Below are positions 5,066-49,344 of a DNA stretch of 64,000 bases, one piece after another. Every line of letters starts with the position of its first letter. Position 1 is the stretch's first letter. This DNA is from an uncultured bacterium. GTDB lineage: Bacteria; Eisenbacteria; RBG-16-71-46; CAIMUX01; WJJG01. The notes beneath the pieces were generated by a model that was not told where the DNA came from, did not search any database, and saw only the letters and a list, made by a program, of their open reading frames with translations. A program made the position numbers and the translations under genes. The stretch spans positions 69,634 through 133,633 of the forward strand of contig CAZRWW010000001.1 in assembly GCA_964603725.1 (NCBI GenBank), given 5' to 3'.

Positions 5066-6058
5066 ATGGACCTGTCGACGAACTACATGGGCCTGGAGCT
5101 CTCCAACCCGTTCATGCCGGGCTCCTCGCCGCTCGTCAAGAACCTCGACACCGTCAAGCGCCTGGAGGACGCCGGCGCGGCGGCCATCGTGATGAACTCG
5201 CTCTTCGAGGAGCAGATCATCGCCGAGGAGCAGGCGGCGGCGGGCGCGATCGACGCGCACACCGATTCCTTCGGGGAGGCGCTGTCGTATTTCCCGCGCG
5301 TCGAGGAATACCGCCTGGGCTCCGAGGAGTACCTGCACCAGATCCAACAGATCAAGAAGTCGGTCGCCATCCCGGTGATCGGCTCGTTGAACGGCGTGAG
5401 CTCGGGCGGCTGGGTCCGCTACGCCAAGCTGATCGCCGAAGCCGGCGCCGACGCCCTGGAGCTCAACGTGTACCATCTGGCCGCGGCCGATGACCGCTGC
5501 GGCGACGTGGTCGAAGTCAAGAGCCTCGATCTGGCCAAGGCGGTCGTGCAAGCGGTGCGGATCCCGGTGGCGGTGAAGGTCTCACCCCACTACACCTCGC
5601 TGCCCGCCTTTGCGCGCTGCATCGAGGACGCCGGCGTGCGGGCGCTGGTGCTGTTCAACCGCTTCTATCAGCCCGACATCGACATCGAGAAGCTGGAGGT
5701 GAAGCGGACGCTCGAGCTGTCGACCTCATCCGAGCTGCTGCTGCGCCTGCGCTGGCTGGCCATCCTGTCCGGACGCACCGGGCTGCACCTGAGCGCGACC
5801 GGCGGCGTGCACACCGCGACCGACGCGATCAAGGCGATCATGGCCGGCGCCGACAGCCTCCAGATGGTCTCGGCGCTGCTCACGCACGGGCCCAAGCACC
5901 TCCAGAAGGTGCGCACGGAGATGGTCTCCTGGATGGAGAAGCACGGCTACGAGTCGATCGCCCAGATGCGCGGCAGCATGAACCTGAAGAACAGCCCCGA
6001 TCCGAGCGCCTACGAGCGGGCGAACTACGTGCACATTCTGCAGACGTGGGAGGCGTAG
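5066..6058 (+). CDS. Dihydroorotate dehydrogenase-like (class 1 DHOD/DHPD family) TIM-barrel flavoprotein
   Basis: MDLSTNYMGLELSNPFMPGSSPL...AIPVIGSLNGVSSGGW...VAVKVSPH... lies immediately downstream of PFOR on the same strand. Confidence 0.8.
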   Translation: MDLSTNYMGLELSNPFMPGSSPLVKNLDTVKRLEDAGAAAIVMNSLFEEQIIAEEQAAAGAIDAHTDSFGEALSYFPRVEEYRLGSEEYLHQIQQIKKSVAIPVIGSLNGVSSGGWVRYAKLIAEAGADALELNVYHLAAADDRCGDVVEVKSLDLAKAVVQAVRIPVAVKVSPHYTSLPAFARCIEDAGVRALVLFNRFYQPDIDIEKLEVKRTLELSTSSELLLRLRWLAILSGRTGLHLSATGGVHTATDAIKAIMAGADSLQMVSALLTHGPKHLQKVRTEMVSWMEKHGYESIAQMRGSMNLKNSPDPSAYERANYVHILQTWEA

Positions 6059-11334: not shown

Positions 11335-14242
11335 CCGCGTACGCGGCCCACGTGAACGGGTGCCGGGCGCCCCGGGAACCCTGCAGGTAGGCGCGCTGGG
11401 CCTCGGACAGCGCCTGTTCGGGCGGGGCTCCGTTTCCGGCCCACGCTTGGATGAACCCCCGCATGAGCTCGGCGGCCTCGTCGTCGCGCACGCGCCAGTA
11501 GGTGTCGACCACCGCGGCCGCGCCCGCATCGACGAGCGCGTCGCCCAGGCCCGGCGTGGTCTTCCCGGCTGCTGCATAGGGCGCGCCGCTGGCGCACCCG
11601 GAGAGAACGACCAGCCGGCAGCGCCGCAGATCCCCGGCCCGCACGTCGTCGATGTCCAGATAGGACGCCTCGATCTGCGCTGTGTCCGCGGCCGGGGAGA
11701 GCGGCAGAAAGGTGAGGTACGGCAGCTCCGGGTCGCGGATGAAATGCGCCGCGGCGTAGATGAACGACGCCTGTTCCCAGACCGCAAAGAGAGCCGGCTT
11801 GGTGGCGTCCGCCCCGGTGAAAGTCCGCGCTCCCGGCCGGAGCGCCGCCAGCAGCCTGACCTCGCTCTGCGCCGCCCCCAAGCCGGCCAGGGCCGGGTAG
11901 CGGCGCCGGATCGCGGCGGCGGGCTGCGGATCCGACAGGATCACGCCGGGCCCGGCCGAGTTGGCCGGCCCGCCGCCGCGCTCGAGCCGCAACTGCGCCA
12001 CGGCGTAGCGGGCCACCAGGGGCTCGTAGCCATCGCCGGTGTTCAAGTTGTACGCGGCGAAGGGCAGCAAGCCCAGGAAACCATCCGGCGAGACGATGAC
12101 CTCCGCGATCTCGCGCGGCCCGGCCGCCAGTGAGACCTCGCGCGGCGCGGCCGGCAGCAGGATCTCGGGCGGCAGCAAGGTGGCGGCGATCCCGTGCAGC
12201 AGGCGGGTCAACTCGGGCCCGGGAGGCGCCTCGACGTCCCCCGGATCCTGCGACACCAGCGTCAAGGCTCGGGCCACCTCGGCTCGCAGCTCCTCGGCGG
12301 CGACCGCCAGCGTATCCAGGCGCACGCCGCCCGGACCGGCGCTCCAGCGCAGGAGCGCCCCCGGCGCGATGAGGTAGACGAGGTGCGCCGCGCGCCGCTC
12401 CCGCAGGCGCGCCAGCACGGGAGCGATCAGCGGCTGCACCTGGCCCGCACCCTCGAGGATCCGGCCCGGCTCCGGCCATCGTTCGGGCCGCCCGAAGGCT
12501 GCCGCGCGCGCCGGTCCGGCGGGAACGCCGTTCGGCATGCCTGGCCGGCGGGCGTCGCGCCCCCAGCCCGGGCTCTCCCCCTCGCCCAGAATCAGCGGCA
12601 GCTGCCGCCAGGAGAGCTCGAGCGCGTAGCCGGCAGCCGGATCGTCGCGCAGGAGCTCGTGCAGCGCGTAGCGCAGCTCATCGCAGACGTTCAGGAAGCC
12701 GTAGCCCTGGGCGCCGGCCTCGGCGTGCGCGAGGAACCCTCGCATGCGCGTCAAACCCGCGCGCAGGACCGCGCGCGCGGCCGGGCGGTCGTTCTCGGCC
12801 AGGTGGATTCTCGCCAGGCACGCGTCGTGGAAGATCCAGGCCTCCCGCAGCGCGCGCTCGCCGCCGGGCCCCAGCTCGGCGGCCTGCCGGCGGAAGTCGC
12901 CAAGCGTCTGCAGCGCGGCCGCTTGGTTGCCGAGGTCGCGCAGCGCGAGGGCCAGCACGATGAGGAATCGTCCGCGCGTGGCCGGCAAGGGGCCCGCGGC
13001 GCTCTGCACCAGCCCACGGCCGATGACGGGCAGCGCCGGGCCGGGACGCCCGTTGGCGAGCAGGCCCTGACTCCACGCGTAGAGCAGCTGCAAGTAGTCG
13101 TAGCGGTTGGGCAGCCCGCGCAGCTCGCGCTCGAGGCGCTCGAAGATCGGCAGCGCCTCGTCGACGCGGCCGAGGGACATCAGGTATCGCGCTTCCATCT
13201 CGTCCAGCCGCAGTCCGATGACCCGCTGCTCGACGACGCGCGGCGAGCGGACCGACTCGCGTTGGAGCACGCGCGCCCGTTGGAGCAGCTGCTCGACCAC
13301 CTGCAGGCGGCCGTGCTCGGCGTGGAAGAAGAGCGTCGCCAGGATGAAGCGCAGCTCCAGGTAGCCGCCCTTGTACTCCCGGCAGATTTCCTGGGCCGCG
13401 GTGTGCCGATCGGCCGCCAGCGCCAGGCGGCCCAGGCTGGCGTAGTAGTCGGCGTAATTGGACATGACCGCGGCCGCATGCTCCGGCAGCCGGTGGCGCG
13501 TCGCGATGACCATCGATTCGTTCCAGGTCACGGCCATGGAGTCGATGCGCCCCGCCTCGCGGTGAAACGAGCCCAGCGCTCCCAGGATCTGGGCGGTCAT
13601 GATCGTCAGATCCCCGCGCCGCGCGGCATCCAGCGCGCGGTGCAGGAAGCGCGCGCGCTCCGGCTCGTTGCCCAGCGATGCCATGAACTCCGCCACGGCG
13701 AAGTCGGCCACCGCGGCGGTCATCCAGTCGCCGGCCGATCGGAAGCGCTCCCCGTACGCCCGGAGCAGATCCGTCTTCTCGCCCAGGAGCAGCTCGGGGT
13801 CGAGGTAGACCGCGTTCATCTCCATCTCGAGCCGGCCCAGCTCCGCGCCGGCCTCGGCCGGCAACCCCATCCAGAAGTGATCGTCGCGCAGGAACTCGAC
13901 ACAGCCGTACTGGGAGGCGAGCTGCTGGGACAGGCGGCCGATGTGGGGCATGAGGGCGCGAACGCTGCGCGCGTAGCTCTCGGCGGTGTCGAAAACCAGC
14001 GCATGCCGGAGCGCCAGACGGGCGTCGATCAGCTCCTTGATGCCGGTGTCCGAGCAATAGCGCGCGAAGTCCTCGTCGGCGTCGTGAACCAGCCGCCGCG
14101 CCATGACGGGGTCCAGTTCGGGCGCCAGGGCGAGCAGGCGGTCGGCGGCGTCGTTGGCGCATCCGCACAGCGCGGCGAGGCAGCCGAGCAGCACCAGGCG
14201 GAGGACCGCCTCGAACTTGCGCGCAGCGTCTGGAATCCCCAT
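11315..14242 (-). CDS. CHAT-domain (caspase-like) protease with N-terminal TPR repeats; a probable secreted lipoprotein
   Basis: The C-terminus has RCRLVVLSGCASG...GLGDALVDAGAAAVVDTYWRVRDDEAAELMRGFI, the CHAT catalytic region. TPR-like repeats lie upstream. The likely start is MGIPDAARKFEAVLRLVLLGCLAALCGC (signal plus lipobox LLGC). The track ORF extends to 14446. Confidence 0.8.
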   Translation of the reverse strand: MGIPDAARKFEAVLRLVLLGCLAALCGCANDAADRLLALAPELDPVMARRLVHDADEDFARYCSDTGIKELIDARLALRHALVFDTAESYARSVRALMPHIGRLSQQLASQYGCVEFLRDDHFWMGLPAEAGAELGRLEMEMNAVYLDPELLLGEKTDLLRAYGERFRSAGDWMTAAVADFAVAEFMASLGNEPERARFLHRALDAARRGDLTIMTAQILGALGSFHREAGRIDSMAVTWNESMVIATRHRLPEHAAAVMSNYADYYASLGRLALAADRHTAAQEICREYKGGYLELRFILATLFFHAEHGRLQVVEQLLQRARVLQRESVRSPRVVEQRVIGLRLDEMEARYLMSLGRVDEALPIFERLERELRGLPNRYDYLQLLYAWSQGLLANGRPGPALPVIGRGLVQSAAGPLPATRGRFLIVLALALRDLGNQAAALQTLGDFRRQAAELGPGGERALREAWIFHDACLARIHLAENDRPAARAVLRAGLTRMRGFLAHAEAGAQGYGFLNVCDELRYALHELLRDDPAAGYALELSWRQLPLILGEGESPGWGRDARRPGMPNGVPAGPARAAAFGRPERWPEPGRILEGAGQVQPLIAPVLARLRERRAAHLVYLIAPGALLRWSAGPGGVRLDTLAVAAEELRAEVARALTLVSQDPGDVEAPPGPELTRLLHGIAATLLPPEILLPAAPREVSLAAGPREIAEVIVSPDGFLGLLPFAAYNLNTGDGYEPLVARYAVAQLRLERGGGPANSAGPGVILSDPQPAAAIRRRYPALAGLGAAQSEVRLLAALRPGARTFTGADATKPALFAVWEQASFIYAAAHFIRDPELPYLTFLPLSPAADTAQIEASYLDIDDVRAGDLRRCRLVVLSGCASGAPYAAAGKTTPGLGDALVDAGAAAVVDTYWRVRDDEAAELMRGFIQAWAGNGAPPEQALSEAQRAYLQGSRGARHPFTWAAYAVKLGSL

Positions 14243-14354
14243 CCCCGGGATCGTATCAGAAGGCCAGGAGCCGCAGAATCTCGAACCTACCGCTTGCCTG
14301 GACCCTGGCAGCGCCCTAGGCTGATCAAGGAGCCGGGGCCGAACGGGGCCGACC

Positions 14355-15212
14355 GTGGACACAGACGTCACACCCAAAGTCAGCCAGGATCTGGAGCTCG
14401 TCCGGCGCATCCTGGACGGTTCGCAAGATGCGTGGGAGCAGTTCATCTTGCGCTACTCCGGCCTGATCCACTCCGTCGTGCGCCGGTACCTGTTCGAGCC
14501 CGAGCAAGTGCGCGATGTCTATGTCGAGGTGCTGAGTCGGCTCTACGAAGGCCGCCTGGGCACCTACGAGGGGCGCTCGGCGTTGTCGACCTGGTTGGTG
14601 CTGGTGGCGCGCAGCGTGGCGCTCGACAACCTGCGCCGCCGCTTCGGACGCCGCGAGGTGCCCGGCGGCATCCAGCGCCTGCGCAAGCGCGATCAGCGCG
14701 TCTTCCAGCTCTACTACATCGACGGCCTGAGCTTCGATGCCGTGCGCCACTGGATGTCGCAGCACGGCGAGTCGATCAGCGCTGATGAGCTGGCCGCCGG
14801 CCTGGAGCGCATCGAGAGCTGCATCGACCATCGCACGCTCAAGAGGATCATCTACGACCTGCACGCCCCCTCCGTGGGCGCCGCGTCGGGCCGCATGATG
14901 GAGTTTCTGGATTGGCACCGGGACCGCCAGGAGCGCCTGCGGCGGGAGCGCAATCCGGAGCAGATCTTGATCGACAAGGAGGCCCGCGCCACCGCCGAGC
15001 GCGTACGGGAGCTGCTGGCCGAGCTGCCCGAGGAAGAGCGCCGGGTCCTGACCCTCCGATTCGACCACGGCCGGACGGCGGTGCAGATCGCCGCCGAGAT
15101 GGGATTCGAGAGCCCTCGTCGCTCTTACACCGTTATCGAAAAGGGATTACGGCGCCTGCGCCGTCTGCTGGGAGCTGAGAAGGGCTGTCAGCGGGGGGGC
15201 CAGAAAGGCTGA
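14355..15212 (+). CDS. RNA polymerase sigma-70 family (ECF-like) sigma factor
   Basis: Region 2 is FILRYSGLIHSVVRRYL...LSTWLVLVARSVALDNLRRR. Region 4 is EERRVLTLRFDHGRTAVQIAAEMGFESPRRSYTVIEKGLRRLRR. GTG start per track. Confidence 0.85.
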   Translation: MDTDVTPKVSQDLELVRRILDGSQDAWEQFILRYSGLIHSVVRRYLFEPEQVRDVYVEVLSRLYEGRLGTYEGRSALSTWLVLVARSVALDNLRRRFGRREVPGGIQRLRKRDQRVFQLYYIDGLSFDAVRHWMSQHGESISADELAAGLERIESCIDHRTLKRIIYDLHAPSVGAASGRMMEFLDWHRDRQERLRRERNPEQILIDKEARATAERVRELLAELPEEERRVLTLRFDHGRTAVQIAAEMGFESPRRSYTVIEKGLRRLRRLLGAEKGCQRGGQKG

Positions 15213-15325
15213 TAGTATAGGCGGGTGGCCCGGGAAAGGGTAGTCCCGCCGACGTCTATTCCGTGTGATTCGGCGCTAGGATCCGCCGGGGCGGTGGGTG
15301 GGGCCCACCGGCGGAGAGTGGGAGC

Positions 15326-16270
15326 ATGCTCATGGCCTACCAGGAACACCTCTCGGATGACACCTTGGCCGCCTTGGTGGAGGGCGGGCTGTGCGGCGAA
15401 GAGCAGGCCCGGGCCCGGGAGCACCTCGCCCGGTGCCGGACCTGCATGGCGGCTTACTCCGAGGCGGCCCGCGTCCAGTCGATCTGGCTCGATGAGCCCG
15501 AGATCTTCACCCCGGCCGACGACATCGTGCGCCTCGGCGTCGTTGTGGGGGCGGCCCGTCACGATGCGCTCGCGTCGCGGCCTCCCCGCCGCGTGCCTCG
15601 CCACCGGCAAGCGCCCAGCGGACTGCGGCCGGCTGTGCTCACCTTGGGAGGCGCGGCCGTGGGGCTGGTCGCGGTGCTGATGTGGCTCAGGCCGGGCCTC
15701 CTCGCCCCGGGCCCTCTGCCCGACCGCGGCGTGGTCGCGCTCGTCGAGCGGGCGGCCCAGCGGACGTCGGCCCACGGTATGGTGCTTCCGTTTGGCGACG
15801 GCTTCACGGTCGAGGACATGACCATCTACCGGGCGGGCGCATCCGAGGCCGACCCGGCGCTCAACAGCGCCATTGCGGCCCTCATCGAGAGCTATGAGCG
15901 GACCGAATCCTCGGAGCGCGCCGCGTGCCTGCTGGTCGCCGGCCAGATCGCCGCCGGGCAGCTCGGCAACGCCCGCGCCTTCGTCGCCGAAGCGCTGCGG
16001 CAGCATCCCGGCGATCCTTGCTTGACCACGCTGGCGGCCATCATCGCGTTCCGCGAGAATGATCTGGCGCGCGCCGAGGCGTTGCTCCGCGACGTCGTGG
16101 CGCGCGACCCCGGAAACCTCGTCGCCGGATTCAACCTGGGCCTGCTGCTCACTGAAAGCGGGCGCGCCCATGAAGCGCGGCCCTTCCTCGAGGCGGTCGC
16201 GAGGGCCCGCGCCGGCACGCCTCTCTCCAGTCGCGCCGAGAGTCTCCTCGAGGGTCGCGTTCCCCGTTGA
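15326..16270 (+). CDS. Anti-sigma factor (zinc-finger ZAS type) with one TM helix and C-terminal TPR repeats
   Basis: HxxxCxxC motif EHLARCRTCM. TM segment AVLTLGGAAVGLVAVLMWL. The C-terminus has TPR-like repeats. It lies directly downstream of the sigma factor. Confidence 0.75.
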   Translation: MLMAYQEHLSDDTLAALVEGGLCGEEQARAREHLARCRTCMAAYSEAARVQSIWLDEPEIFTPADDIVRLGVVVGAARHDALASRPPRRVPRHRQAPSGLRPAVLTLGGAAVGLVAVLMWLRPGLLAPGPLPDRGVVALVERAAQRTSAHGMVLPFGDGFTVEDMTIYRAGASEADPALNSAIAALIESYERTESSERAACLLVAGQIAAGQLGNARAFVAEALRQHPGDPCLTTLAAIIAFRENDLARAEALLRDVVARDPGNLVAGFNLGLLLTESGRAHEARPFLEAVARARAGTPLSSRAESLLEGRVPR

Positions 16271-16361
16271 CGATCGCTGAAGGTCTGCCCGCGAGCGGAC
16301 GCCCACCCCGCAGACGACCCGTCGCGCCGCGGGAGCGACCACGCGGGCGCGGCGCCGTGCG

Positions 16362-16400
16362 CCCAAAAGCCAGACGCGCACCCCCGAGAGGGCGCGCGTC
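16362..16400 (-). terminator. Intrinsic terminator downstream of paralog 1
   Basis: GC hairpin GACGCGC(ACCC)...(GGGC)GCGCGTC. On the minus strand it is followed by GGCUUUUGGGCG. Confidence 0.6.
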
Positions 16401-16426
16401 TGATTCACTCAGCTTCAGTCCCAGGA

Positions 16427-17233
16427 CTACTGGAAGAGAGCCTTCACCTGACCCCACGTCGAGCTCTCGACCGGCGAGATGCCGCCGCTGCCCTCGAGGA
16501 TGAAGGGCACGCCCTGCGGGGCGCCGCTGCCGGTGTCGATGAGCTGCTGCCACAGGCCGGAGGCGTACTGCAACGCATCACCCGTCGTGGTCTGGCCCAG
16601 GAAGACGATCGGGTTGCCCCAAGGTCCCGAGGCCAGCGTGCCTGTGTGATCGTAGGCGATCCAGTACCAGCCCGCACTGAGGACGAGCGGCGGACTGAAA
16701 GCGCACACGTTGGCCATGATTGGGCGGTTGGTGTCCATCATGGCGGTGTCGAGCACCCGATAGCAGCCCGACCACGCGGTCGTCACCAACCGGTTGGTGA
16801 CCTGATCCCCGTAGATGACCGTGCCGCCGGGAGGCGCGTCATCCAAGATCTCGAAGTACGCGCCCGTGAAGGTGGACGTCGTCGAGGATCCGGTCTGATA
16901 GCCGAAGAACGTGACCTGGTTGATCGTCCAGGTGCAGCCCGTGGGAACCACGAAGTCGTCGGCAAAGCGATAGGGAATCGTGTGGTTGAAGTTGAAGCCG
17001 TAGACCGACATGCCAAGGGCCGTCTGGACCACCGACGCGTTGGCGCCGCCGTAGCCGCCGCCCGGATGCGTGACGAACGGGCCGTTGTCATACAGGACAT
17101 CCCGCGAGGGAGTCCAGACCGGGCCGCCGTTGGGCGCGATGAAGCCCGTGACCGCCTCGGTGTCAACGGCGAGGTCCGCGAACACTGGGGCAGCTAGGAC
17201 TGCCAGCGCGAACAACACTGCAAAGCTGCGCAT
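16427..17233 (-). CDS. Secreted hypothetical protein, paralog 1 of 3, ending in the WGQVKALFQ C-terminal tag
   Basis: Signal peptide MRSFAVLFALAVLAAPVFA. It is about 85% identical to the two upstream paralogs and ends ...SSTWGQVKALFQ*. AGGAGG lies upstream of the ATG. Confidence 0.8.
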   Translation of the reverse strand: MRSFAVLFALAVLAAPVFADLAVDTEAVTGFIAPNGGPVWTPSRDVLYDNGPFVTHPGGGYGGANASVVQTALGMSVYGFNFNHTIPYRFADDFVVPTGCTWTINQVTFFGYQTGSSTTSTFTGAYFEILDDAPPGGTVIYGDQVTNRLVTTAWSGCYRVLDTAMMDTNRPIMANVCAFSPPLVLSAGWYWIAYDHTGTLASGPWGNPIVFLGQTTTGDALQYASGLWQQLIDTGSGAPQGVPFILEGSGGISPVESSTWGQVKALFQ

Positions 17234-17363
17234 CTTCTAACCTCCTGTCGACTTTGCACCGCCGCAGGGAACAGCGACTCCTGGTTTCGCACCAAGCACT
17301 GCGCACCCGCGGCCGCGCACTCACTGAACACAAGGTTTGATGCAGCGGCCGGATCACTCTGCT

Positions 17364-17402
17364 GTGAGACCCTTTCCCATTGCTGGGCGACCTGACTCTC
17401 AC
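17364..17402 (-). promoter_or_regulatory. Conserved inverted-repeat element at the predicted 5' end of the paralog transcripts (copy 1)
   Basis: GTGAGA-N27-TCTCAC with an internal CCCA-GCAA-UGGG (GNRA-capped) hairpin. It starts 5-8 nt after the -10 box. Copies lie at 18562..18600 and 19761..19798. Confidence 0.5.
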
Positions 17403-17404
17403 AT

Positions 17405-17440
17405 CCATAATGATACCGACGACCTGTAGCTGTGTTCAAG
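17405..17440 (-). promoter_or_regulatory. Putative sigma70-like promoter for paralog 1
   Basis: Minus strand TTGAAC-N18-TATCAT. A homologous TTGAAT-N18-TAGGAT lies at 18608..18637, and TTGAAG-N18-TAGAAT at 19806..19835. Confidence 0.45.
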
Positions 17441-17554
17441 CACAATGACAGTGATTCGGGTGTCCCCTCCACGGGGTTCATCCAGCTGACGGGGGAGTGC
17501 CGGAAGCGCGGCCTGATCATCAATTCTGTTTACGGCCGTAACCAGTCACGCGCG

Positions 17555-17591
17555 CCCAAAAGCAGACGCGCGCCCCTCGGGGGCGCGCGTC
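17555..17591 (-). terminator. Intrinsic terminator downstream of paralog 2
   Basis: Perfect 12-bp stem GACGCGCGCCCC/GGGGCGCGCGTC with a 3-4 nt loop. On the minus strand it is followed by UGCUUUUGGG. Confidence 0.75.
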
Positions 17592-17619
17592 CGACGGAAC
17601 TCGGCTTCCGTTCCTCAAG

Positions 17620-18432
17620 CTACTGGAACAGAGCCTTCACCTGACCCCACGTCGAGCTCTCGACCGGCGAGATGCCGCCGCTGCCCTCGAGAATGAAGGG
17701 CACGCCCTGGCCGGTGCCAGTGCCGGTGTCGATGAGCTGATTCCACATCCCCGAGGACGCGGTGTACTGGAGGCCGTCACCCGTCGTCGTCATGCCCAGG
17801 ATCGTGACCGGCGGGCACCAGGGCCCGGAGGCCAGCGTTCCCGTGCAATCGAACGCGATGTAGTACCAGCCGGGTCCCAGGACCAGGGGCGGAGTGACCG
17901 CGCACACGTTCGCCATAACCGGACGGTTGGTGTCCATCATGGCGGTGTCGAGCACGCGGTACATGTTCGCCCAGGCCGTCGTGACCAGGCGGTTGGTCAC
18001 CGTGTCACCCCAGATCACGGCGCCGCCGGGAGGCACGTCATCGAAGATCCGGATGTACGCACCCGTGTAGCTGGATGTCGTCCCGGAGCCTGTCTGATAG
18101 CCGAAGATCGTGACCTGGTTGATCGTCCAGGTGCAGCCCTGGGGAACCACAAAGTCATCGGCCATCGTGTTCGGCAGCGTGTGCTGGAAGCCGAAGCCGT
18201 ACGTCGACAGCCCCAGAGCGGTCTGGAGCACCGACGCGTTGGCGCCGCCGTAGCCGCCACCCGGGTGGGTGACCAGCGGGCCGTTGTCGTACAGGACATC
18301 CCGTGAGGGAGTCCAAATCGGGCCGCCGTTGGGCGCGATGAAGCCCGTGACCGTCTCGGTGTCGGCTTCGAAGTCCGCCAGCACCGGAGCGACCAAGGCT
18401 GCCAGCGCGAACAACACTGCAAAGCTGCGCAT
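17620..18432 (-). CDS. Secreted hypothetical protein, paralog 2 of 3, ending in the WGQVKALFQ tag
   Basis: MRSFAVLFALAALVAPVLA signal. Same family as 16427..17233. Ends ...SSTWGQVKALFQ*. Confidence 0.8.
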   Translation of the reverse strand: MRSFAVLFALAALVAPVLADFEADTETVTGFIAPNGGPIWTPSRDVLYDNGPLVTHPGGGYGGANASVLQTALGLSTYGFGFQHTLPNTMADDFVVPQGCTWTINQVTIFGYQTGSGTTSSYTGAYIRIFDDVPPGGAVIWGDTVTNRLVTTAWANMYRVLDTAMMDTNRPVMANVCAVTPPLVLGPGWYYIAFDCTGTLASGPWCPPVTILGMTTTGDGLQYTASSGMWNQLIDTGTGTGQGVPFILEGSGGISPVESSTWGQVKALFQ

Positions 18433-18561
18433 CTTCTAACCTCCTGTCGACACTTGCACGCTACAGAGATTGTCGCCCTGTGGCTTCCTGCCCAGTGACA
18501 CATCCCCGTAGCCGCGCACTCACTGAACGTAAGGTTGATGCAGCGGCCGGATCACTCTGCT

Positions 18562-18600
18562 GTGAGACCCTTTCCCATTGCTGGGTGACCTGGTTCTCAC
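18562..18600 (-). promoter_or_regulatory. Conserved inverted-repeat 5' element, copy 2
   Basis: Homologous to 17364..17402 with 3 substitutions. Confidence 0.5.
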
Positions 18601-18607
18601 ACCAGCG

Positions 18608-18637
18608 ATCCTAATGGCACTTGAGAGCTGCATTCAA
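18608..18637 (-). promoter_or_regulatory. Putative sigma70-like promoter for paralog 2
   Basis: Minus strand TTGAAT-N18-TAGGAT, at the same relative position as in the other copies. Confidence 0.4.
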
Positions 18638-18751
18638 GCGCCTTTTTGCAGTAACTCGGGAGCCCCCTCCACGGGGTCCATCCGACGGCCGGGAGAGCAC
18701 CGGGAGTGCGGTCTGGTCGTCATTTTGGTTTACGGTTGTAACTAACCGTCC

Positions 18752-18793
18752 TCGCCTAAATGCAGACGCGCACCCCCGAGGGGCGCGCGTCTG
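18752..18793 (-). terminator. Intrinsic terminator downstream of paralog 3
   Basis: Stem CAGACGCGCACCC/GGGCGCGCGTCTG with one mismatch. On the minus strand it is followed by CAUUUAGG. Confidence 0.55.
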
Positions 18794-18817
18794 ATTCACT
18801 CAGCCTCAGTCCCAGGA

Positions 18818-19630
18818 CTACTGGAACAGAGCCTTCACCTGACCCCAGGTCGAGCACTCGACCGGCGAGCAGCCGCCCGTGCCCTCGAGAATGAAGGGCA
18901 CGCCCTGGCCGGTGCCAGTGCCGCTGTCGATGGCCTGATTCCACATGCCCGAGGACGCGGTGTACTGGAGAGCGTCACCCGTCGTCGTGATGCCCAGGAT
19001 CGAGACCGGCGGGCACCAGGGCCCGGAGGACAGCGTTCCCGTGCAATCGAAGGCGATGTAGTACCAGCCCGCGCTCAGAACCAGAGGCGGATCCACGGCG
19101 CACACGTTCGCCATGACCGGACGGTTGGTGTCCATCATGGACGTGTCGAGCACGCGGTACATGTTCGCCCAGGCCGTCGTGACCAGGCGGTTGGTGACCG
19201 TGTCACCCCAGATCACGGCGCCGCCGGGAGGCGCATCGTCGAAGATACGGATGTACGCACCCGTGAAGCTCGACGTCGTCCCGGAGCCGGTCTGGTAACC
19301 GAAGATCGTGACCTGGTTGATGGTCCAGGTCTGGCCCTGGGGAACCACGAAGTCATCGGCCATCGTGTTCGGCAGCGTGTGCTGGAAACCGAAGCCGTAC
19401 AACGAAAGTCCCAGAGCGGTCTGGAGCACCGACGCGTCCGCGCCGCCGTAGCCGCCACCCGGGTGGGTGACCAGCGGGCCGTTGTCGTACAGGACATCCC
19501 GTGAGGGAGTCCAAATCGGGCCGCCGTTGGGCGCGATGAAGCCCGTGACCGTCTCGGTGTCGGCTTCGAAGTCCGCCAGCACCGGAGCGACCAAGGCTGC
19601 CAGCGCGAACAACACTGCAAAGCTGCGCAT
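18818..19630 (-). CDS. Secreted hypothetical protein, paralog 3 of 3, ending in the WGQVKALFQ tag
   Basis: MRSFAVLFALAALVAPVLA signal. Ends ...CSTWGQVKALFQ*. Confidence 0.8.
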   Translation of the reverse strand: MRSFAVLFALAALVAPVLADFEADTETVTGFIAPNGGPIWTPSRDVLYDNGPLVTHPGGGYGGADASVLQTALGLSLYGFGFQHTLPNTMADDFVVPQGQTWTINQVTIFGYQTGSGTTSSFTGAYIRIFDDAPPGGAVIWGDTVTNRLVTTAWANMYRVLDTSMMDTNRPVMANVCAVDPPLVLSAGWYYIAFDCTGTLSSGPWCPPVSILGITTTGDALQYTASSGMWNQAIDSGTGTGQGVPFILEGTGGCSPVECSTWGQVKALFQ

Positions 19631-19760
19631 CTTCTAACCTCCTGTCGACTCCCGCGCCGCCACAGAAACCAACGTCCCCCGGCTTGCTGCCAGGGGGCGC
19701 TTCCCTGCGGCCGCGCACTCACAGAACCACATGTTGTTGCAGCGGCCAGAACACTCTACC

Positions 19761-19798
19761 GTGAGACCCTTCCCATTGCTGGGTGACCTGGCTCTCAC
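19761..19798 (-). promoter_or_regulatory. Conserved inverted-repeat 5' element, copy 3
   Basis: Homologous to 17364..17402 with a 1-nt deletion. Confidence 0.5.
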
Positions 19799-19805
19799 AC
19801 CCAAG

Positions 19806-19835
19806 ATTCTACCTTGTCCCGGGCGCTCTCTTCAA
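19806..19835 (-). promoter_or_regulatory. Putative sigma70-like promoter for paralog 3
   Basis: Minus strand TTGAAG-N18-TAGAAT. Confidence 0.45.
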
Positions 19836-19965
19836 GCCCTTTCTGCGCCTTTGTGGCGTGCCGTAAATGAGTGTTTCAAATTGCCTAAAGTGTTCTTATA
19901 TAATTGGTTGTGTGCCTTGTGGTCACCGGTCGCCACCGCCCGGAACCCTGGTCCGGGGCAGCCAC

Positions 19966-22512
19966 CTACTCCCACCAACGAATCAGTCGGGTAACGTGAC
20001 GATTACCCATGTCAACATGGCTGGGCATGACCCGCACCGCGAATCCCTCGCGCCCGCTGCGCCGGCACTCGATCTCGCCCCGGAACAGGTGTACGCGCTC
20101 ACCCTCGTGACCCTCGAGGCGCATCACGACGGTCTCAGGCCCGGCGAGCTGGCCGCGAGCATCGAGATGCCCGGTCACGATCTCGACGACCACGTCATCC
20201 GGCTGGAGCGCGCCGAGCTCGATCTGGCACCAGACGCCGATCTCCTGGCCGACCTTGGCCTCCTCGGTCCCGCTGGCGTGGACGCTGCGAATGCGCACGT
20301 TGTGCCATTCGCGCCCGACCCGCTCCTGCCAGGCGGCCAGCGCCCGGGCCCGCGCCCCCTTCTCGGCGGTGAGCGTCTGGTACCGCTCGGCGGTGGCCGC
20401 GTAGTACTGGCTCACGTAGTCGCACACCATGCGATTGGTGTTGAAGACCGGGCAGAGCTGGCCCATCGCCGCCTTCATCTTGGCGATCCACCCGCGCGGC
20501 AGGCCATCCTTGCCGCGGGCGTAGAACAGCGGCACGATGTCGTTCTCCAGCAGATCGTAGATCGACGCCGACTCGACCGCATCCTGGTAGTCCTCGTCCT
20601 GGTACTCCTCCCCGTGGCCGATCGCCCAGCCCACCTCGCGCGTGTAGGCCTCATCCCACCAGCCGTCCAGCACGCTCAGGTTCGGCGCCCCGTTGGCCAC
20701 CGCCTTCATGCCGCTCGTGCCGCTGGCCTCGCGCGGCCGGCGGGGCGTGTTGAGCCAGACGTCGCACCCCTGCACGAGATAGCGCGCGATCGCCATGTCG
20801 TAGTTCTCGAGGAAGATCACCCGGCGCCGGATGCGCTCATCGCGCACGTGGTGGATCAGATCGCGAATCAGTCGCTTGCCATTGTCGTCCTGCGGATGCG
20901 CCTTGCCCGCGAAGATGATCTGCACGGGCGTCTCGGGATGGCAGAGGATGCGCACCAGCCGCTCGAAATCGCGGAACAGCAGGGTGCCCCGCTTGTACGG
21001 CGCGAATCTCCGGGCGAATCCGATCGTCAGCGTGCGCGGATCGAGCACCTCGCCGGCCATGCGGATCTCGTTGTCGGGCGCGCCGCGGTTCTCGAGCTGG
21101 CGCGCCAGCGTCTTGCGGGCGAAGGCCACCAGCCGCTCGCGCCGCCGCTCGTGCGTGCGCCAGAGCTCCTCATCGGGAATCTCCGCCACGCCTTCCCAGA
21201 CCGACTGGTCGGACGGATCCTCTGTCCAGCGCGGCCCGAGGTAGCGATCGAAGAGCGAGGCCAGGTCGAAGGAGATCCAGGAGCGGGCGTGAACGCCGTT
21301 GGTGATGTGGCCGATGGGGAGCTCCTCCTCCGGGGCGCCCGGCCACAGGTGGGCGAACATCCGCCGCGAGACCTGCCCGTGCAGGCGGCTGACGCCGTTG
21401 ACGCAGTTGGCCAGCCGAATCGCCAGTACGGCCATGCTGAACTCGTCGCGCCGGACGTCGCGGCCGAGGTCGACCAGCCGCTCGACCGCAACGCCCATCC
21501 GATCGGCATAGGGCTTCAAGTAGACCTGCACGAGCGGCACCGGGAAGACGTCGATTCCCGCCGGCACCGGCGTGTGCGTCGTGAAGACATTGCCCGCTTC
21601 GGCCGCCAGACGCGCCTCCTCGAACGAGAGCCCCGCCGTCTCCATCAGCGCGCGAATGCGCTCGATGGCCAGGAAGGCCGAATGGCCCTCGTTCATGTGA
21701 CACACGGTCGGCCGGATGCCCAGCGCCTCGAGGGCCCGCAGGCCCCCCACGCCGAGCAGCAACTCCTGGCGGATGCGCATCTCCTTGTCGCCGCCGTAGA
21801 GCTCGTCCGCGATGTCCTGATCGGCCTGGCTGTTGGCGGGGACATTGGTATCGAGCAGGATCAGCGGAATCCGGCCGACCTGCGCCCGCCAGACCTGCGC
21901 CACCACCTGGCGATCGGCCATGTCGACCAGCACGCGCAGCGGCGACCCGTCGGCCTTGCGCTCGAGGCTGATCGGCATCGTCGGGAAATCGTTGACCGGG
22001 TAGCTCTCATGCTGCCACCCGTCGTTGGTCAGGTACTGCCGGAAGTAGCCCTTCTGATACAGCAGGCCGACGCCTACCAGCGGGATGCCCAGCTCGGAGG
22101 CCGCCTTCAGGTGATCGCCGGCCAGGATGCCCAGGCCGCCCGAGTAGATCGGCATGCACTCGGTGATCGCGAACTCGGCCGAGAAGTAGGCGACGTTGCA
22201 CTGGTCTCCGTGCCGCAATCCCTCGCACATCCAGCCCTGGCGCTCCAGGTGGCGATGGAGCTCGCCCGCGACGCGCCCCATGTGGACGTGGAAGCCGTCG
22301 TCCTTGGCAAGTTGTTCGAGCCGGTGCTGGTCGACGTCGCCCAGCATCTTCACGGGATTGTGGCCGGAGGTCTCCCAAAGGTTCTTGTCGATGCGCCGAA
22401 AAAGCTCGATGCTGTCGTGGTCCCAGGCCCAGCGCAGGTTGTAGGCGATTTCCTTCAAGGGCAGAAGGGAATCGGGCAGGGCCGGGGTGACGTGGAACTG
22501 CTGAATACGCAT
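19966..22512 (-). CDS. glgP: Alpha-glucan phosphorylase (GlgP family, about 850 aa, PLP-dependent)
   Basis: MRIQQFHVTPALPDSLLPLKEIAYNLRWAWDHDSIELFRRID...FSAEFAITECMPIYSGGLGILAGDHLKAASELGIPLVGVGLLYQKGYFRQ... and PLP-site GTSGMKAVANGAPNLSVLDGWWDEAY. Confidence 0.95.
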   Translation of the reverse strand: MRIQQFHVTPALPDSLLPLKEIAYNLRWAWDHDSIELFRRIDKNLWETSGHNPVKMLGDVDQHRLEQLAKDDGFHVHMGRVAGELHRHLERQGWMCEGLRHGDQCNVAYFSAEFAITECMPIYSGGLGILAGDHLKAASELGIPLVGVGLLYQKGYFRQYLTNDGWQHESYPVNDFPTMPISLERKADGSPLRVLVDMADRQVVAQVWRAQVGRIPLILLDTNVPANSQADQDIADELYGGDKEMRIRQELLLGVGGLRALEALGIRPTVCHMNEGHSAFLAIERIRALMETAGLSFEEARLAAEAGNVFTTHTPVPAGIDVFPVPLVQVYLKPYADRMGVAVERLVDLGRDVRRDEFSMAVLAIRLANCVNGVSRLHGQVSRRMFAHLWPGAPEEELPIGHITNGVHARSWISFDLASLFDRYLGPRWTEDPSDQSVWEGVAEIPDEELWRTHERRRERLVAFARKTLARQLENRGAPDNEIRMAGEVLDPRTLTIGFARRFAPYKRGTLLFRDFERLVRILCHPETPVQIIFAGKAHPQDDNGKRLIRDLIHHVRDERIRRRVIFLENYDMAIARYLVQGCDVWLNTPRRPREASGTSGMKAVANGAPNLSVLDGWWDEAYTREVGWAIGHGEEYQDEDYQDAVESASIYDLLENDIVPLFYARGKDGLPRGWIAKMKAAMGQLCPVFNTNRMVCDYVSQYYAATAERYQTLTAEKGARARALAAWQERVGREWHNVRIRSVHASGTEEAKVGQEIGVWCQIELGALQPDDVVVEIVTGHLDARGQLAGPETVVMRLEGHEGERVHLFRGEIECRRSGREGFAVRVMPSHVDMGNRHVTRLIRWWE

Positions 22513-22808
22513 GCGGGTAGCTCCTCATACGTCGGCGTGTGCCAGTCGAATCGGACCCCTCGATCCGCGGTCGGGGCCTGGGCGGGTCATCCGGCGCGAA
22601 GGGTCTGCAGGCCCGGAGGGTCCGCCGACGCACGCAGGCTACCCCAATGCAACGGTTCGGTCAAACGCAGCGCGGATCGCCAAGCGGTCTTCACCAGCCC
22701 CCACACTATCGCGGGGCCCTCGCCCGGACGAAGGCGGGCGCCGCGGCACCGGGGCATCGGGGCATCGGGGCACCGGGCGGGATTCGAGCAACGGCGGGAG
22801 GGCTGACC

Positions 22809-48567: not shown

Positions 48568-49344
48568 ATGCGACGCGCTCTGACGATCATCGCAACACTC
48601 GTGGTCTTCTCCACCCTCGCCCACGGCGATCCGCATATCCTGGCCAGCGGGGCGTTGATCACGCACTCGATGAGCTATGGGCGTTACCCACCGCAATGCT
48701 ACACCTACTATCAGTACAATCCGATCTCGAGCTGCAACGAACAGAACGCCACCATGTCTTGGGGTAGGCACGCGTGGTTCGTCATCGCAGCGTTCGACGA
48801 GGAGAAGCAGTGGTGCGGCGTCGAGTTCGGGTTCAACGATTTCAACCCCGAGCCCTTCGACTTCTGGGGGGCGGACCCGTGCTTCCCGGTGGGCGGACTG
48901 GAGATTCCATCCGCAAACTGGCCGGGCCCGCTCCAGGGCACAGCCTTCGTGACGACCGGCACGCCGTGGACGGGCAACTTCGTGCCGGTCTACTGCTTCT
49001 ACGGGTATGCCTACGACTACTACGGATCCACGATCCTGCAGCTCACGCCCAATCCGGCGAGCGGTTTCGGCGGCTTCGCCAACTGCACGACGCCGCCGGA
49101 GTTGTACGAGGCCGCCCTGGGTGGGATGGGGGTCAACTGCCCGGGCGTGGAGGTGTGCTGGGGCTGGCAGGAGTTCGTCTGCTGCGTGGGCACCGAATGC
49201 GTGCTGGTGCACGGCCAGGAGGAGTGCACGGCCCTGGGCGGCATCTTCCACGCCGAGTGGGATAGCTGCGGGCCCCCGAATCCGTGCGACGTGACGCCGG
49301 CCATCCGGTCGAGCTGGGGACGCGTCAAGGCGCTGTACCGTTGA
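48568..49344 (+). CDS. Secreted Cys-rich hypothetical protein ending in the SSWGRVKALYR C-terminal tag
   Basis: Signal peptide MRRALTIIATLVVFSTLAHG. More than 14 Cys residues. Its mature domain is unrelated to the tandem paralogs but it carries the same C-terminal motif. Confidence 0.7.
   Translation: MRRALTIIATLVVFSTLAHGDPHILASGALITHSMSYGRYPPQCYTYYQYNPISSCNEQNATMSWGRHAWFVIAAFDEEKQWCGVEFGFNDFNPEPFDFWGADPCFPVGGLEIPSANWPGPLQGTAFVTTGTPWTGNFVPVYCFYGYAYDYYGSTILQLTPNPASGFGGFANCTTPPELYEAALGGMGVNCPGVEVCWGWQEFVCCVGTECVLVHGQEECTALGGIFHAEWDSCGPPNPCDVTPAIRSSWGRVKALYR

What the first reader, a model, noticed from the sequence alone, without database searches (positions are those of the whole stretch)
16340..19840. 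Recent tandem triplication in which each copy is an autonomous transcription unit
Three copies of about 1195 bp each carry the same architecture in the same order: a sigma70-like promoter TTGAAN-N18-TANNAT, then a conserved 39-nt inverted-repeat element, then a 5' UTR of about 200 nt, then AGGAGG, then the CDS, then a GC-rich intrinsic terminator. The proteins are about 85% identical, with differences concentrated in short surface-like segments. This looks like an expanding secreted-protein family, possibly under diversifying selection.
Basis: seen in the sequence. Interest (0 to 1): 0.6.

Follow-up and report, generated by a model that had tools for sequence, protein, structure and literature searches.

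The report
Tandem surface-protein genes with shared leader
Three neighbouring copies of a gene for a small secreted protein of unknown function each carry their own promoter, a conserved folded RNA leader and a terminator. The array is old and under purifying selection rather than recent and diversifying, and its leader and short C-terminal tail are reused for an unrelated protein at the same site in sister genomes.

Summary
On the minus strand, three about 1,198-bp units (CDS 18818-19630, 17620-18432, 16427-17233) each carry TTGAAN-N18-TANNAT, a 38-39-nt hairpin element, a roughly 170-nt leader, AGGAGG, a 268-270-aa secreted protein and a 14-bp GC hairpin.

- The array is not recent. dS between copies is 0.15-0.50, and a relative with 93%-identical GlgP has a syntenic three-copy array. 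The tree shows two paralogue types older than that split.
- There is no sign of diversifying selection. Pairwise dN/dS is 0.15-0.46, and the highest 15-codon window is 0.67.

The protein is one copy of a widespread extracellular beta-sandwich domain with no annotation (about 2,800 clusters at 50% identity; no Pfam, NCBIfam or PDB relative). It ends in a short tail, SWGxIKxLF.

The leader is under selection. P1 is 92-96% identical between units, against about 69% at third codon positions. It always starts 7 nt after the -10 box, and its helices show compensatory changes.

In two sister genomes the same locus holds tandem genes for an unrelated protein with the same tail and a related leader.

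Best reading: a conserved high-expression slot for tagged surface proteins. Function of protein, tail and leader is inferred, not shown.

The parts
19806..19835 (-). Unit W3 promoter-like site: TTGAAG, 18-nt spacer, TAGAAT
   Evidence: The hexamers are conserved across 6 units (0.9 and 0.7-0.75 identity) while the spacer is not (0.4).
19761..19798 (-). Unit W3 leader hairpin P1. GTGAGA/TCTCAC outer stem, CC/GG pairs, AGGUCA internal loop, CCCA-GCAA-UGGG apex. It starts 7 nt after the -10 box.
19736..19760 (-). Unit W3 leader block P2 (GGTAGAGTGTTCTGGCCGCTGCAAC). This small hairpin has a conserved loop and is the most widely conserved piece of the leader.
19654..19718 (-). Unit W3 leader hairpin P3. 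Long stem with a variable apex and compensatory changes.
19638..19643 (-). Unit W3 Shine-Dalgarno AGGAGG
18818..19630 (-). W3 CDS, 270 aa. Sec-type signal peptide (MRSFAVLFALAALVAPVLA/D), beta-sandwich domain at about residues 45-255, and C-terminal tail SPVECSTWGQVKALFQ.
18758..18793 (-). Unit W3 terminator-like hairpin. 14-bp GC-rich stem followed by CAUUU.
18608..18637 (-). Unit W2 promoter-like site: TTGAAT, 18-nt spacer, TAGGAT
   Evidence: Not called by the consensus scan.
18440..18600 (-). Unit W2 leader: P1 18562-18600, P2 18537-18561, P3 18456-18519, SD 18440-18445
17620..18432 (-). W2 CDS, 270 aa, 93% identical to W3
17558..17593 (-). Unit W2 terminator-like hairpin
17410..17439 (-). 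Unit W1 promoter-like site: TTGAAC, 18-nt spacer, TATCAT
17241..17402 (-). Unit W1 leader: P1 17364-17402, P2 17339-17363, P3 17256-17320, SD 17241-17246
16427..17233 (-). W1 CDS, 268 aa. This is the second paralogue type, closest to J2 of the related genome.
16365..16402 (-). Unit W1 terminator-like hairpin
19966..22512 (-). Upstream neighbour: alpha-glucan phosphorylase (DUF3417 + Phosphorylase). It was used as the synteny anchor.
14355..16270 (+). Convergent neighbours: ECF-type sigma factor (14355-15212) and zf-HC2/TPR anti-sigma-like protein (15326-16270). They are syntenic with the array in L001 and L095.
48568..49344 (+). Unrelated secreted Cys-rich ORF ending in the same tail (SSWGRVKALYR*). 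It lacks the leader.

Best explanation
The region is a long-standing array of three paralogous monocistronic genes. It sits in a conserved slot between glgP and an ECF sigma / anti-sigma / CHAT module in a genome that is probably of the Eisenbacteria lineage.

Each gene encodes a small Sec-exported protein with three parts: a signal peptide, one copy of a widespread uncharacterised extracellular beta-sandwich domain, and an 11-15-residue C-terminal tail (S/T-W-G-x-I/V-K-x-L-F/Y plus or minus one residue). In homologues, PEP-CTERM-like or IPTL-like tails, or PVELQSFxVE, occupy the same position as this tail. I therefore infer that it directs sorting or attachment at the cell surface.

Each unit is transcribed from its own housekeeping-type promoter. 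Transcription should start at the foot of hairpin P1, so the mRNA would begin with a 5'-terminal stem-loop, followed by P2 (conserved loop), P3 (variable, covarying) and a strong Shine-Dalgarno sequence. It would end at a GC-rich hairpin.

The most likely role of the leader is to make the mRNA long-lived and highly expressed. This is how 5'-terminal stem-loops work in ompA, papA and aprE. The conserved P2 loop may be a site for an unknown regulator.

Shown: the anatomy, the conservation, the covariation, purifying selection, the age of the array and the reuse of leader and tail with an unrelated protein. Inferred: the transcription start, mRNA stabilisation, export, and the role of the tail.
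For: Anatomy and repeat structure.

Age and selection:
- dS is 0.15-0.50 and dN/dS is 0.25-0.37 among the window copies.
- Across 12 sequences, pairwise dN/dS is 0.15-0.46 and the highest window is 0.67.
- L001 and L002 carry syntenic three-copy arrays.
- The tree resolves two old paralogue clades.

Selection on the regulatory parts:
- P1 is 0.92-0.96 identical and the -35 box about 0.9.
- The spacer is 0.4, the discriminator 0.3, and third codon positions about 0.69.
- The 7-nt gap between the -10 box and P1 is the same in the nine units with a recognisable TAnnnT -10 box (three W, three J, L095b, L096a, L096b); in L095a, whose -10 is poor, it is about 5 nt. The sequence of the gap is not conserved.

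RNA structure:
- P3 across 11 sequences is 88.7% paired, with 10 pairs changed on both sides; 0/500 shuffles reach this.
- P1 and P2 across 9 sequences are 95% paired. Six of the nine outer-helix pairs of P1 show compensatory changes; 0/500 shuffles, and the slid controls are 33-46% paired.
- The 3' side of the P1 internal loop varies in length by 1-2 nt. An RNA hairpin tolerates this; a dimeric DNA operator does not, and nor does a reading frame.

Protein:
- 372 hits in the first search.
- 2,792 clusters at 50% identity at E<=1e-3. The domain often occurs in giant proteins alongside DUF7507, BACON_2, DUF11, P_proprotein and Ig-like domains.
- AlphaFold2 gives the core a pLDDT above 94 and an all-beta fold.

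Tail:
- The same tail is found on an unrelated ORF in the window.
- It is found on nearly all 47 members of an unrelated 280-aa family.
- Homologues carry PEP-CTERM-like or IPTL-like tails or PVELQSFxVE at the same position.

Slot: L095 and L096 have tandem genes for the unrelated family at the same locus, with a related promoter, P1 and P2.

5'-terminal stem-loops as mRNA stabilisers: the review PMC3997798 and its references 92-95 and 109.
Against: - There are no transcript data. The transcription start, the termination points and the expression level are all inferred from sequence.
- The terminator U-tracts are short, and the scan did not call them.
- P1 is nearly invariant within the W/J group. 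Its covariation evidence rests on three diverged sequences, in an alignment fitted to the model.
- Symmetric change in a palindromic operator would look the same as compensatory change in a hairpin.
- The strict sequence conservation of P1 and of the P2 loop exceeds what a passive stabilising hairpin needs. It hints at a specific binding partner.
- Foldseek against the PDB gave no significant match (best E 6.6e-3), so the protein's activity is unknown.
- No candidate sorting enzyme for the tail was identified.
- The Eisenbacteria assignment rests only on the names attached to GlgP homologues.
Confidence: 0.6

Rival explanations
1. One reading: a recent tandem triplication whose copies are diverging under positive, diversifying selection on surface segments.
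For: W2 and W3 are the closest pair (93% aa, dS 0.146) and are sisters in the tree (100%), so one duplication or gene conversion is younger than the rest. Amino-acid differences do cluster somewhat, for example at residues 21-30 and 226-240, where omega is highest (0.56-0.67).
Against: dS reaches 0.5 between copies. The two paralogue types are shared with a second genome. Every pairwise and windowed dN/dS is below 1. The segments with highest omega are the disordered N-terminal linker and a loop that also carries indels across the wider family, which fits relaxed constraint.
Confidence: 0.1
2. The 38-39-nt inverted repeat acts as DNA. It would be an operator overlapping the transcription start, bound by a repressor (possibly linked to the neighbouring sigma/anti-sigma module), so that the three promoters are co-regulated.
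For: The element sits at +1 to +39, a classic operator position. Its sequence, and not only its pairing, is 92-96% conserved. It occurs only at these promoters in the 64-kb window. The regulatory neighbours are syntenic.
Against: The distance between the half-sites varies by 1-2 nt among close relatives. In L095 and L096 the inner sequence is replaced while a continuous hairpin is kept. The element has nested stems and a GNRA-like loop (GCAA/GCGA), and is followed by further covarying helices. These are features of RNA.
Confidence: 0.15
3. The leader is a regulatory RNA rather than a passive stabiliser: a protein-, sRNA- or ligand-responsive element that tunes translation or decay of all array members together.
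For: The P2 block GCAGAGUG(U/A)UC(U/C)GG...UGCAUC is conserved even where P1 has diverged and the coding sequence belongs to another family. The unpaired AGGUCA of P1 and its C-rich apex are conserved. The leader is long (about 170 nt) and has three helices.
Against: No Rfam family matches at E<=10. No alternative terminator/antiterminator pairing or conserved Shine-Dalgarno sequestration was found: the candidate anti-SD pairings are not conserved between copies. The element is confined to a narrow clade.
Confidence: 0.2
4. The locus is a cassette-exchange or surface-variation site. The conserved leader and the tail-coding 3' end would act as recombination handles through which different cargo genes are swapped in.
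For: The same slot holds unrelated cargo families with a related leader and an identical tail motif in sister genomes. Copy number (0, 2 or 3) and paralogue order (AAB against ABA) differ between relatives.
Against: Shared nucleotide identity between the two cargo systems is limited to about 14-25 nt in P2. No recombinase or silent cassette was seen near the array. Within a genome the copies are diverged, not mosaic.
Confidence: 0.1
5. The extra copies are an assembly artefact.
For: Short-read assemblers break at this locus. Homologues lie on about 1-kb contigs that start inside P1.
Against: The copies differ by 6-20% at DNA level, with unique indels. Two independent JGI samples give the same three-copy arrangement in the relative.
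Confidence: 0.03

Closest known systems
5'-terminal stem-loop mRNA stabilisers (E. coli ompA and papA leaders, B. subtilis aprE leader)
   Same: The hairpin is placed at the very 5' end of a long leader of a gene for an abundant exported protein, and is followed by a strong ribosome-binding site. The constant 7-nt distance from the -10 box puts the foot of the stem at the expected start. For the principle see PMC3997798, references 92-95 and 109.
   Different: There is no sequence relation to those leaders. P1 is conserved in sequence far beyond what base-pairing needs, and it is followed by a second conserved hairpin loop. Stabilisation has not been tested here.
Tandem paralogous surface or S-layer protein genes, each with its own promoter and long leader (general knowledge of S-layer gene organisation, from memory)
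   Same: Multiple adjacent monocistronic copies, a strong promoter-like site, a long structured leader, a signal peptide and a strong terminator.
   Different: The protein is only about 250 residues after cleavage and has no S-layer-type domain. No evidence of lattice formation or abundance is available.
C-terminal protein-sorting tags (PEP-CTERM/exosortase, IPTL-CTERM, T9SS C-terminal domain)
   Same: It is a modular C-terminal signature shared by unrelated secreted proteins of one lineage. It sits exactly where homologues in other phyla carry PEP-CTERM (PF07589) or IPTL-like tails.
   Different: The tail is 11-15 residues long, has no transmembrane helix or basic cluster, and is too short to be a T9SS beta-sandwich domain. 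No Pfam or NCBIfam model matches it, and no paper was found for the motif.
Carbohydrate-binding-module-like or jelly-roll beta-sandwich domains
   Same: The fold is predicted with confidence to be all-beta. The weak Foldseek neighbours are CBM3a, CBM4, CBM6 and CBM35, viral jelly rolls and BclA. The domain co-occurs with Ig-like and P-domain modules in giant extracellular proteins.
   Different: No match is significant (best E 6.6e-3, TM 0.4 or lower), there is no sequence relative in the PDB, and no binding specificity can be inferred.

Membership tests
Recent segmental (tandem) duplication | Near-identity of the copies at DNA level, including non-coding and synonymous sites | tested here: not met
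   Nucleotide identity is 80-94% and dS is 0.15-0.50. The promoter spacer is only about 45% identical. Paralogue types are shared with a second genome.
Gene family under diversifying selection | dN/dS above 1, overall or in defined segments | tested here: not met
   Pairwise values are 0.15-0.46 and the highest 15-codon window is 0.67. Site models were not run.
Sigma-70-type promoter | -35 and -10 hexamers close to TTGACA/TATAAT with 16-18-nt spacing | tested here: met
   W3 and W1 were called at 9/12 with an 18-nt spacer. W2 is TTGAAT-N18-TAGGAT. The hexamers are conserved while the spacer is not, in 6 units. The same layout (TTGAnn-N18-TAnnnT) is recognisable in L095b and L096b, a -10 box alone in L096a, and only a poor match in L095a.
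Sigma-70-type promoter | A mapped transcription start 6-8 nt downstream of the -10 box | not testable with these tools
   No transcript data are available.
Intrinsic (Rho-independent) terminator | A GC-rich stem-loop directly after the stop codon | tested here: met
   14-bp stems of -31 to -33 kcal/mol, z -3.2 to -6.2.
Intrinsic (Rho-independent) terminator | A U-tract of at least 5 of 8 bases after the stem | tested here: not met
   The tails are GCUUUUGG, CUUUUGG and CAUUUAGG, and the scan did not call them. They may still terminate transcription in a high-GC organism.
5'-terminal stem-loop mRNA stabiliser | A stable hairpin with no more than a few unpaired nucleotides at the 5' end of the transcript | tested here: inconclusive
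   The hairpin is conserved and covaries, and it starts 7 nt after the -10 box in the nine units with a recognisable -10 box. The true 5' end is unknown.
5'-terminal stem-loop mRNA stabiliser | The hairpin lengthens mRNA half-life | not testable with these tools
   This needs an experiment.
Any Rfam family (riboswitch or other cis-regulatory RNA) | A covariance-model match at or near the gathering score | tested here: not met
   The best hits score 19-23 bits against thresholds of 36-120, all with E>1 and all to unrelated eukaryotic families.
Any Pfam, NCBIfam or PDB protein family | A significant profile or sequence match | tested here: not met
   No Pfam hit at E<=0.1. NCBIfam gave only noise. 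The PDB profile search found nothing at E<=1. Foldseek against the PDB found nothing at E<=0.001.
PEP-CTERM / IPTL-CTERM sorting domains | A signature motif followed by a transmembrane helix and a basic cluster at the C-terminus | tested here: not met
   The window proteins end ...SPVESSTWGQVKALFQ with no hydrophobic span. Some homologues do carry PF07589 or IPTL-like tails.
T9SS C-terminal domain | A C-terminal beta-sandwich domain of about 70-100 residues recognised by Por_Secre_tail-type models | tested here: not met
   Only about 15 residues follow the core domain. There is no model hit, and pLDDT is low after residue 255.

The most novel reading that the evidence does not exclude
The promoter, the P1-P2 leader and the SWGxIKxLF tail together form a previously undescribed, lineage-specific module for expressing and sorting surface proteins. 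In this reading:
- the tail is the recognition signal of an unknown sorting or attachment pathway that handles several unrelated protein families;
- the leader is a new cis-acting RNA with a specific partner;
- the glgP / ECF-sigma locus is a slot into which different cargo genes are placed and amplified.
Probability: 0.3. Interest if true: 0.7.

Novelty: new variant of a known kind. Interest (0 to 1): 0.42.

Why it matters
As first described (a recent triplication under diversifying selection), the finding is ordinary, and half of that description is wrong. Three things give it some value.

- It exposes a large extracellular domain family that no curated library names. The family has about 2,800 clusters at 50% identity, spans many uncultured phyla, and is often embedded in giant adhesin-like proteins.
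- It gives a clean candidate for a new short C-terminal sorting signal, shared by at least three unrelated protein families.
- It gives a candidate structured leader RNA that is under stronger constraint than the coding sequence it precedes and is reused with different cargo.

Each of these is directly testable. Together they would help in reading the cell-surface biology of Eisenbacteria-like organisms, which have no cultured representatives to my knowledge.

There is also a practical lesson. These arrays systematically break short-read assemblies, so the genes are mostly seen as orphan 1-kb contigs.

Tried and rejected
**Searches that found nothing**
- Rfam scan at E<=10: only noise.
- Pfam and NCBIfam on the three proteins: nothing. 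PDB profile search: nothing. Foldseek against the PDB: no significant neighbour.
- Exact-pattern scan of metagenome contigs for the P1 core: only the contig already known.
- Covariance models R1 and R2 found no leader in 80 loci of distant family members, including two Eisenbacteria loci at 48-50% protein identity. Elsewhere in the window they found nothing either.
- Plasmid collection: no match.
- Look-up of the window's own protein in the contig index failed. For P0010 no DNA was available.
- Literature search for the tail motif: nothing relevant. The Eisenbacteria papers are ecological surveys.

**Ideas considered and dropped**
- A leader peptide encoded by P1. Dropped because 1-2-nt indels between copies break any reading frame.
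- P1 as an attenuator or terminator. Dropped because no U-tract follows it.
- Sequestration of the Shine-Dalgarno sequence by an upstream AACCU. It is present in W1 and W2 only and is not conserved.
- ECF-sigma-type promoters driving the array. Dropped because the -10 boxes are TAnnAT and the -35 boxes TTGAAN, which is the housekeeping type.
- Homology between the window family and the 280-aa family of L095/L096. Only the last 15 residues align.

Full report
**1. The observation**

The region holds three direct repeat units with start-to-start spacing of 1,193-1,200 bp. Tandem Repeats Finder missed them because its longest period is 500. The genes lie on the minus strand: W3 at 18818-19630 (270 aa), W2 at 17620-18432 (270 aa) and W1 at 16427-17233 (268 aa).

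Read 5' to 3' on that strand, each unit has:
- TTGAAG / TTGAAT / TTGAAC, an 18-nt spacer, then TAGAAT / TAGGAT / TATCAT;
- after exactly 7 nt, GTGAGA-N26/27-TCTCAC (38-39 nt);
- a leader of about 170 nt that ends in AGGAGG, 7 nt before the ATG;
- the CDS;
- a 14-bp GC-rich hairpin (-31 to -33 kcal/mol, z -3.2 to -6.2) followed by a short U-run.

The consensus scan called two of the three promoters. It found 4 promoter-like sites in the region against 0.7 expected. It did not call the terminators, because their U-tracts are short.

W2/W3 are 93% identical, and W1 is 78-80% identical to the others.

**2. Age and selection**

Pairwise Nei-Gojobori estimates give dS 0.146 for W2/W3 and 0.44-0.50 for W1 against the others, with dN/dS 0.29-0.33.

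A 307-kb JGI contig (L001), and a second sample with the same sequence (L002), carry a syntenic locus: glgP, three copies, a TPR anti-sigma-like gene and an ECF sigma factor. Its GlgP is 93% identical to the window's.

A neighbour-joining tree of 12 family members shows two clades. W1 groups with J2 and L086 (80% bootstrap). W2+W3 (100%) group with J1+J3 (96%) at 85%. The first duplication is therefore older than the split of these genomes. The second occurred, or was homogenised, separately in each genome. The physical order also differs: AAB in the window and ABA in L001.

Across the 12 sequences pairwise dN/dS is 0.15-0.46, and no 15-codon window exceeds 0.67. The highest values fall in the N-terminal linker, which AlphaFold2 leaves disordered, and in a loop that carries indels across the wider family.

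'Recent' and 'diversifying' are thus not supported.

**3. The protein**

No Pfam or NCBIfam model matches, and a family profile finds no PDB chain. Yet the family is large.
- The first search gave 372 hits.
- A profile search gave 2,792 clusters at 50% identity at E<=1e-3, of which 1,700 were at E<=1e-30.
- The genome collection gave 359 loci, from MAGs labelled Chloroflexota, Acidobacteriota, Bacteroidota, Calditrichaceae, Ignavibacteriales, Eisenbacteria and others.

The conserved part, about residues 45-255, occurs one to three times in proteins of up to 3,500 residues. There it sits beside DUF7507, BACON_2, DUF11, P_proprotein, DUF4397 and Ig-like domains, and no enzymes were seen. That pattern is typical of extracellular adhesin-like proteins.

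AlphaFold2 with a 47-sequence alignment gives a confident all-beta core (pLDDT above 94; mean 86, pTM 0.76). Foldseek against the PDB returns only weak jelly-roll and CBM-like neighbours (best E 6.6e-3).

The N-terminus is a standard Sec signal peptide, MRSFAVLFALAALVAPVLA/D, without a lipobox cysteine (read directly from the sequence).

**4. The C-terminal tail**

All copies end ...SPVE-x-STWGQVKALFQ. Three observations suggest this is a modular signal.
- Among the 120 best homologues, 35 end in W-G-x-I/V-K-x-L-F/Y plus or minus one residue. A further 39 end in PVELQSFxVE, about 10 have an IPTL-like tail with a hydrophobic helix, and a few carry PEP-CTERM.
- An unrelated Cys-rich secreted ORF elsewhere in the window (48568-49344) ends SSWGRVKALYR.
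- A third, unrelated family, described in section 6, ends in the same motif in nearly all of its 47 members.

The tail is too short to be a T9SS domain and has no membrane span. No library model and no paper describes it. That it acts as a sorting or attachment signal is an inference from its position and modularity.

**5. The leader**

Region-by-region identity among the six W and J units:

| Region | Identity |
|---|---|
| P1 | 0.92-0.96 |
| -35 box | about 0.9 |
| P2 block | 0.82 |
| -10 box | 0.70-0.75 |
| Third codon positions | about 0.69 |
| P3 | 0.6 |
| Promoter spacer | 0.4 |
| 7-nt discriminator | 0.3 |

P1 is therefore under stronger constraint than the coding sequence.

RNAalifold predicts three helices.
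- **P1** has a GUGAGA/UCUCAC outer stem, CC/GG pairs, an asymmetric internal loop (AGGUCA on the 5' side, A-rich on the 3' side) and a CCCA-GC[ACG]A-UGGG apex.
- **P2** is GCAG...CUGC, with the loop AGUG(U/A)UC(U/C)GG.
- **P3** is a long stem with a variable apex.

P3 across 11 sequences is 88.7% paired, with 10 pairs changed on both sides. None of 500 shuffles reached this, and the slid controls were 30-56% paired.

Short contigs from other metagenomes, carrying proteins 58-79% identical, show that the 3' side of the P1 internal loop varies in length (AA, AAA, AAAG, AUUC, AAAA, AAAC, AUAC). The stems are kept.

No Rfam family matches. Covariance models built from the leader find only the three window copies (E about 1e-18 to 1e-20) and the copies in relatives. 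They find nothing in 80 loci of distant family members. The leader is therefore specific to one lineage.

**6. The same slot with different cargo**

I used GlgP orthologues as anchors.
- L095 (GlgP 84% identical) has glgP, two tandem 281-aa genes, the TPR anti-sigma-like gene, the ECF sigma factor and CHAT.
- L096 (80%) has glgP, a NUDIX gene and two tandem 280-aa genes, and then the contig ends.
- L098 (80%) has no array.

The 280-aa proteins share nothing with the window family except the last 15 residues, and they have no Pfam hit. Their units nevertheless keep much of the regulatory layout:
- TTGAnn-N18-TAnnnT (clear in L095b and L096b; a -10 box alone in L096a; only a poor match in L095a);
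- a 7-nt gap to the hairpin (about 5 nt in L095a);
- a P1 hairpin with a different sequence and a C-rich apex (CCCACC);
- the P2 block GCAGAGTGTTCTGGnCATTGCATC.

On the model-fitted alignment of nine leaders, six of the nine P1 outer-helix pairs show compensatory changes and 95% of cells are paired. None of 500 shuffles reached this, and the slid controls were 33-46% paired. The caveats are that only three diverged sequences contribute and that the alignment leans towards the model.

The other tagged ORF in the window lacks the leader. The leader therefore goes with the slot, not with the tail as such.

**7. How it most likely works**

Shown:
- Each unit has conserved promoter hexamers.
- A hairpin sits at a fixed distance from the -10 box, and further helices covary.
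- Each unit has a strong Shine-Dalgarno sequence, a signal peptide, a conserved tail and a strong hairpin after the stop codon.

Inferred:
- Transcription starts at the foot of P1, giving a 5'-terminal stem-loop. In E. coli ompA and papA and in B. subtilis aprE, such a stem-loop protects mRNA from 5'-end-dependent decay (PMC3997798, references 92-95 and 109).
- The genes are highly expressed.
- The proteins are exported, and the tail then sorts or anchors them.

The sequence-level conservation of P1 and the P2 loop suggests an additional specific partner, which I cannot identify.

The operator alternative is weakened by three points: the variable half-site spacing, the replacement of the inner sequence while a hairpin is retained, and the nested helices.

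**8. Comparison with what is known, and verdict**

The architecture resembles genes for abundant surface proteins that have stabilising leaders. The tail resembles C-terminal sorting tags in logic but meets none of their defining features. The domain is CBM- or jelly-roll-like in fold only.

The leader, the tail and the reuse of the slot are modestly novel and testable.

The taxonomic label (Eisenbacteria lineage) rests only on the names attached to GlgP homologues at 61-72% identity.

Noticed in passing
window 48568-49344 (+): An unrelated, Cys-rich secreted ORF of 258 aa with no Pfam hit. It ends in the same C-terminal tail (…SSWGRVKALYR*) as the three array proteins, but has no P1/P2 leader upstream.
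   Followed up: partly
L095 6108-6953 and 7651-8496; L096 9452-10294 and 10904-11746: In sister genomes the slot downstream of glgP holds tandem pairs of a different 280-aa protein family. That family has 47 homologues and nearly all end in SWGxIKxLF. The genes carry a related promoter, P1 hairpin and P2 block.
   Followed up: partly
L085-L094 (contigs of about 1 kb), and the contig lengths listed: Most metagenomic homologues of both families sit alone on contigs of about 0.95-1.1 kb. These contigs begin inside P1 and stop just after the stop codon or at the terminator. This pattern is expected if assemblers break at the conserved repeats of tandem arrays, so such arrays are probably common and under-assembled.
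   Followed up: partly
window 11315-16270; L095 8653-11623; L001 9531-12770: An ECF-type sigma factor, a zf-HC2/TPR anti-sigma-like protein and a TPR-CHAT protein (in L001 a 384-aa gene with no Pfam hit takes the CHAT position) lie convergent to the array, and stay next to it in relatives whatever the cargo. The array promoters do not look ECF-type. Whether there is a functional link is unknown.
   Followed up: no
L007 (ORF ending at 5155), L010, L031, L046, L049, L057, and 39 of the 120 best protein hits: A second short C-terminal ending, …PVELQSF-x-V/I-E*, replaces the SWGxIKxLF tail in homologues from loci labelled Acidobacteria, Holophagae or Thermoanaerobaculia. It also ends a 752-aa ORF in L007. 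It may be another undescribed terminal tag.
   Followed up: no
window 17465-17545 and 18663-18745 (-): The spacers upstream of the W1 and W2 promoters share a further stretch of about 80 nt with small inverted repeats (GTTACGGCCGTAAC-like and CCCCGTGGAGGGG). This stretch is absent from W3 and is not conserved in L001. It is probably just part of the duplicated unit.
   Followed up: no
window 19867-22806 (+), 12194-14785 (+), 15188-16408 (-): Very long ORFs run antisense to glgP, to the CHAT gene and to the anti-sigma gene. These are the usual spurious ORFs of a high-GC genome, not genes.
   Followed up: no
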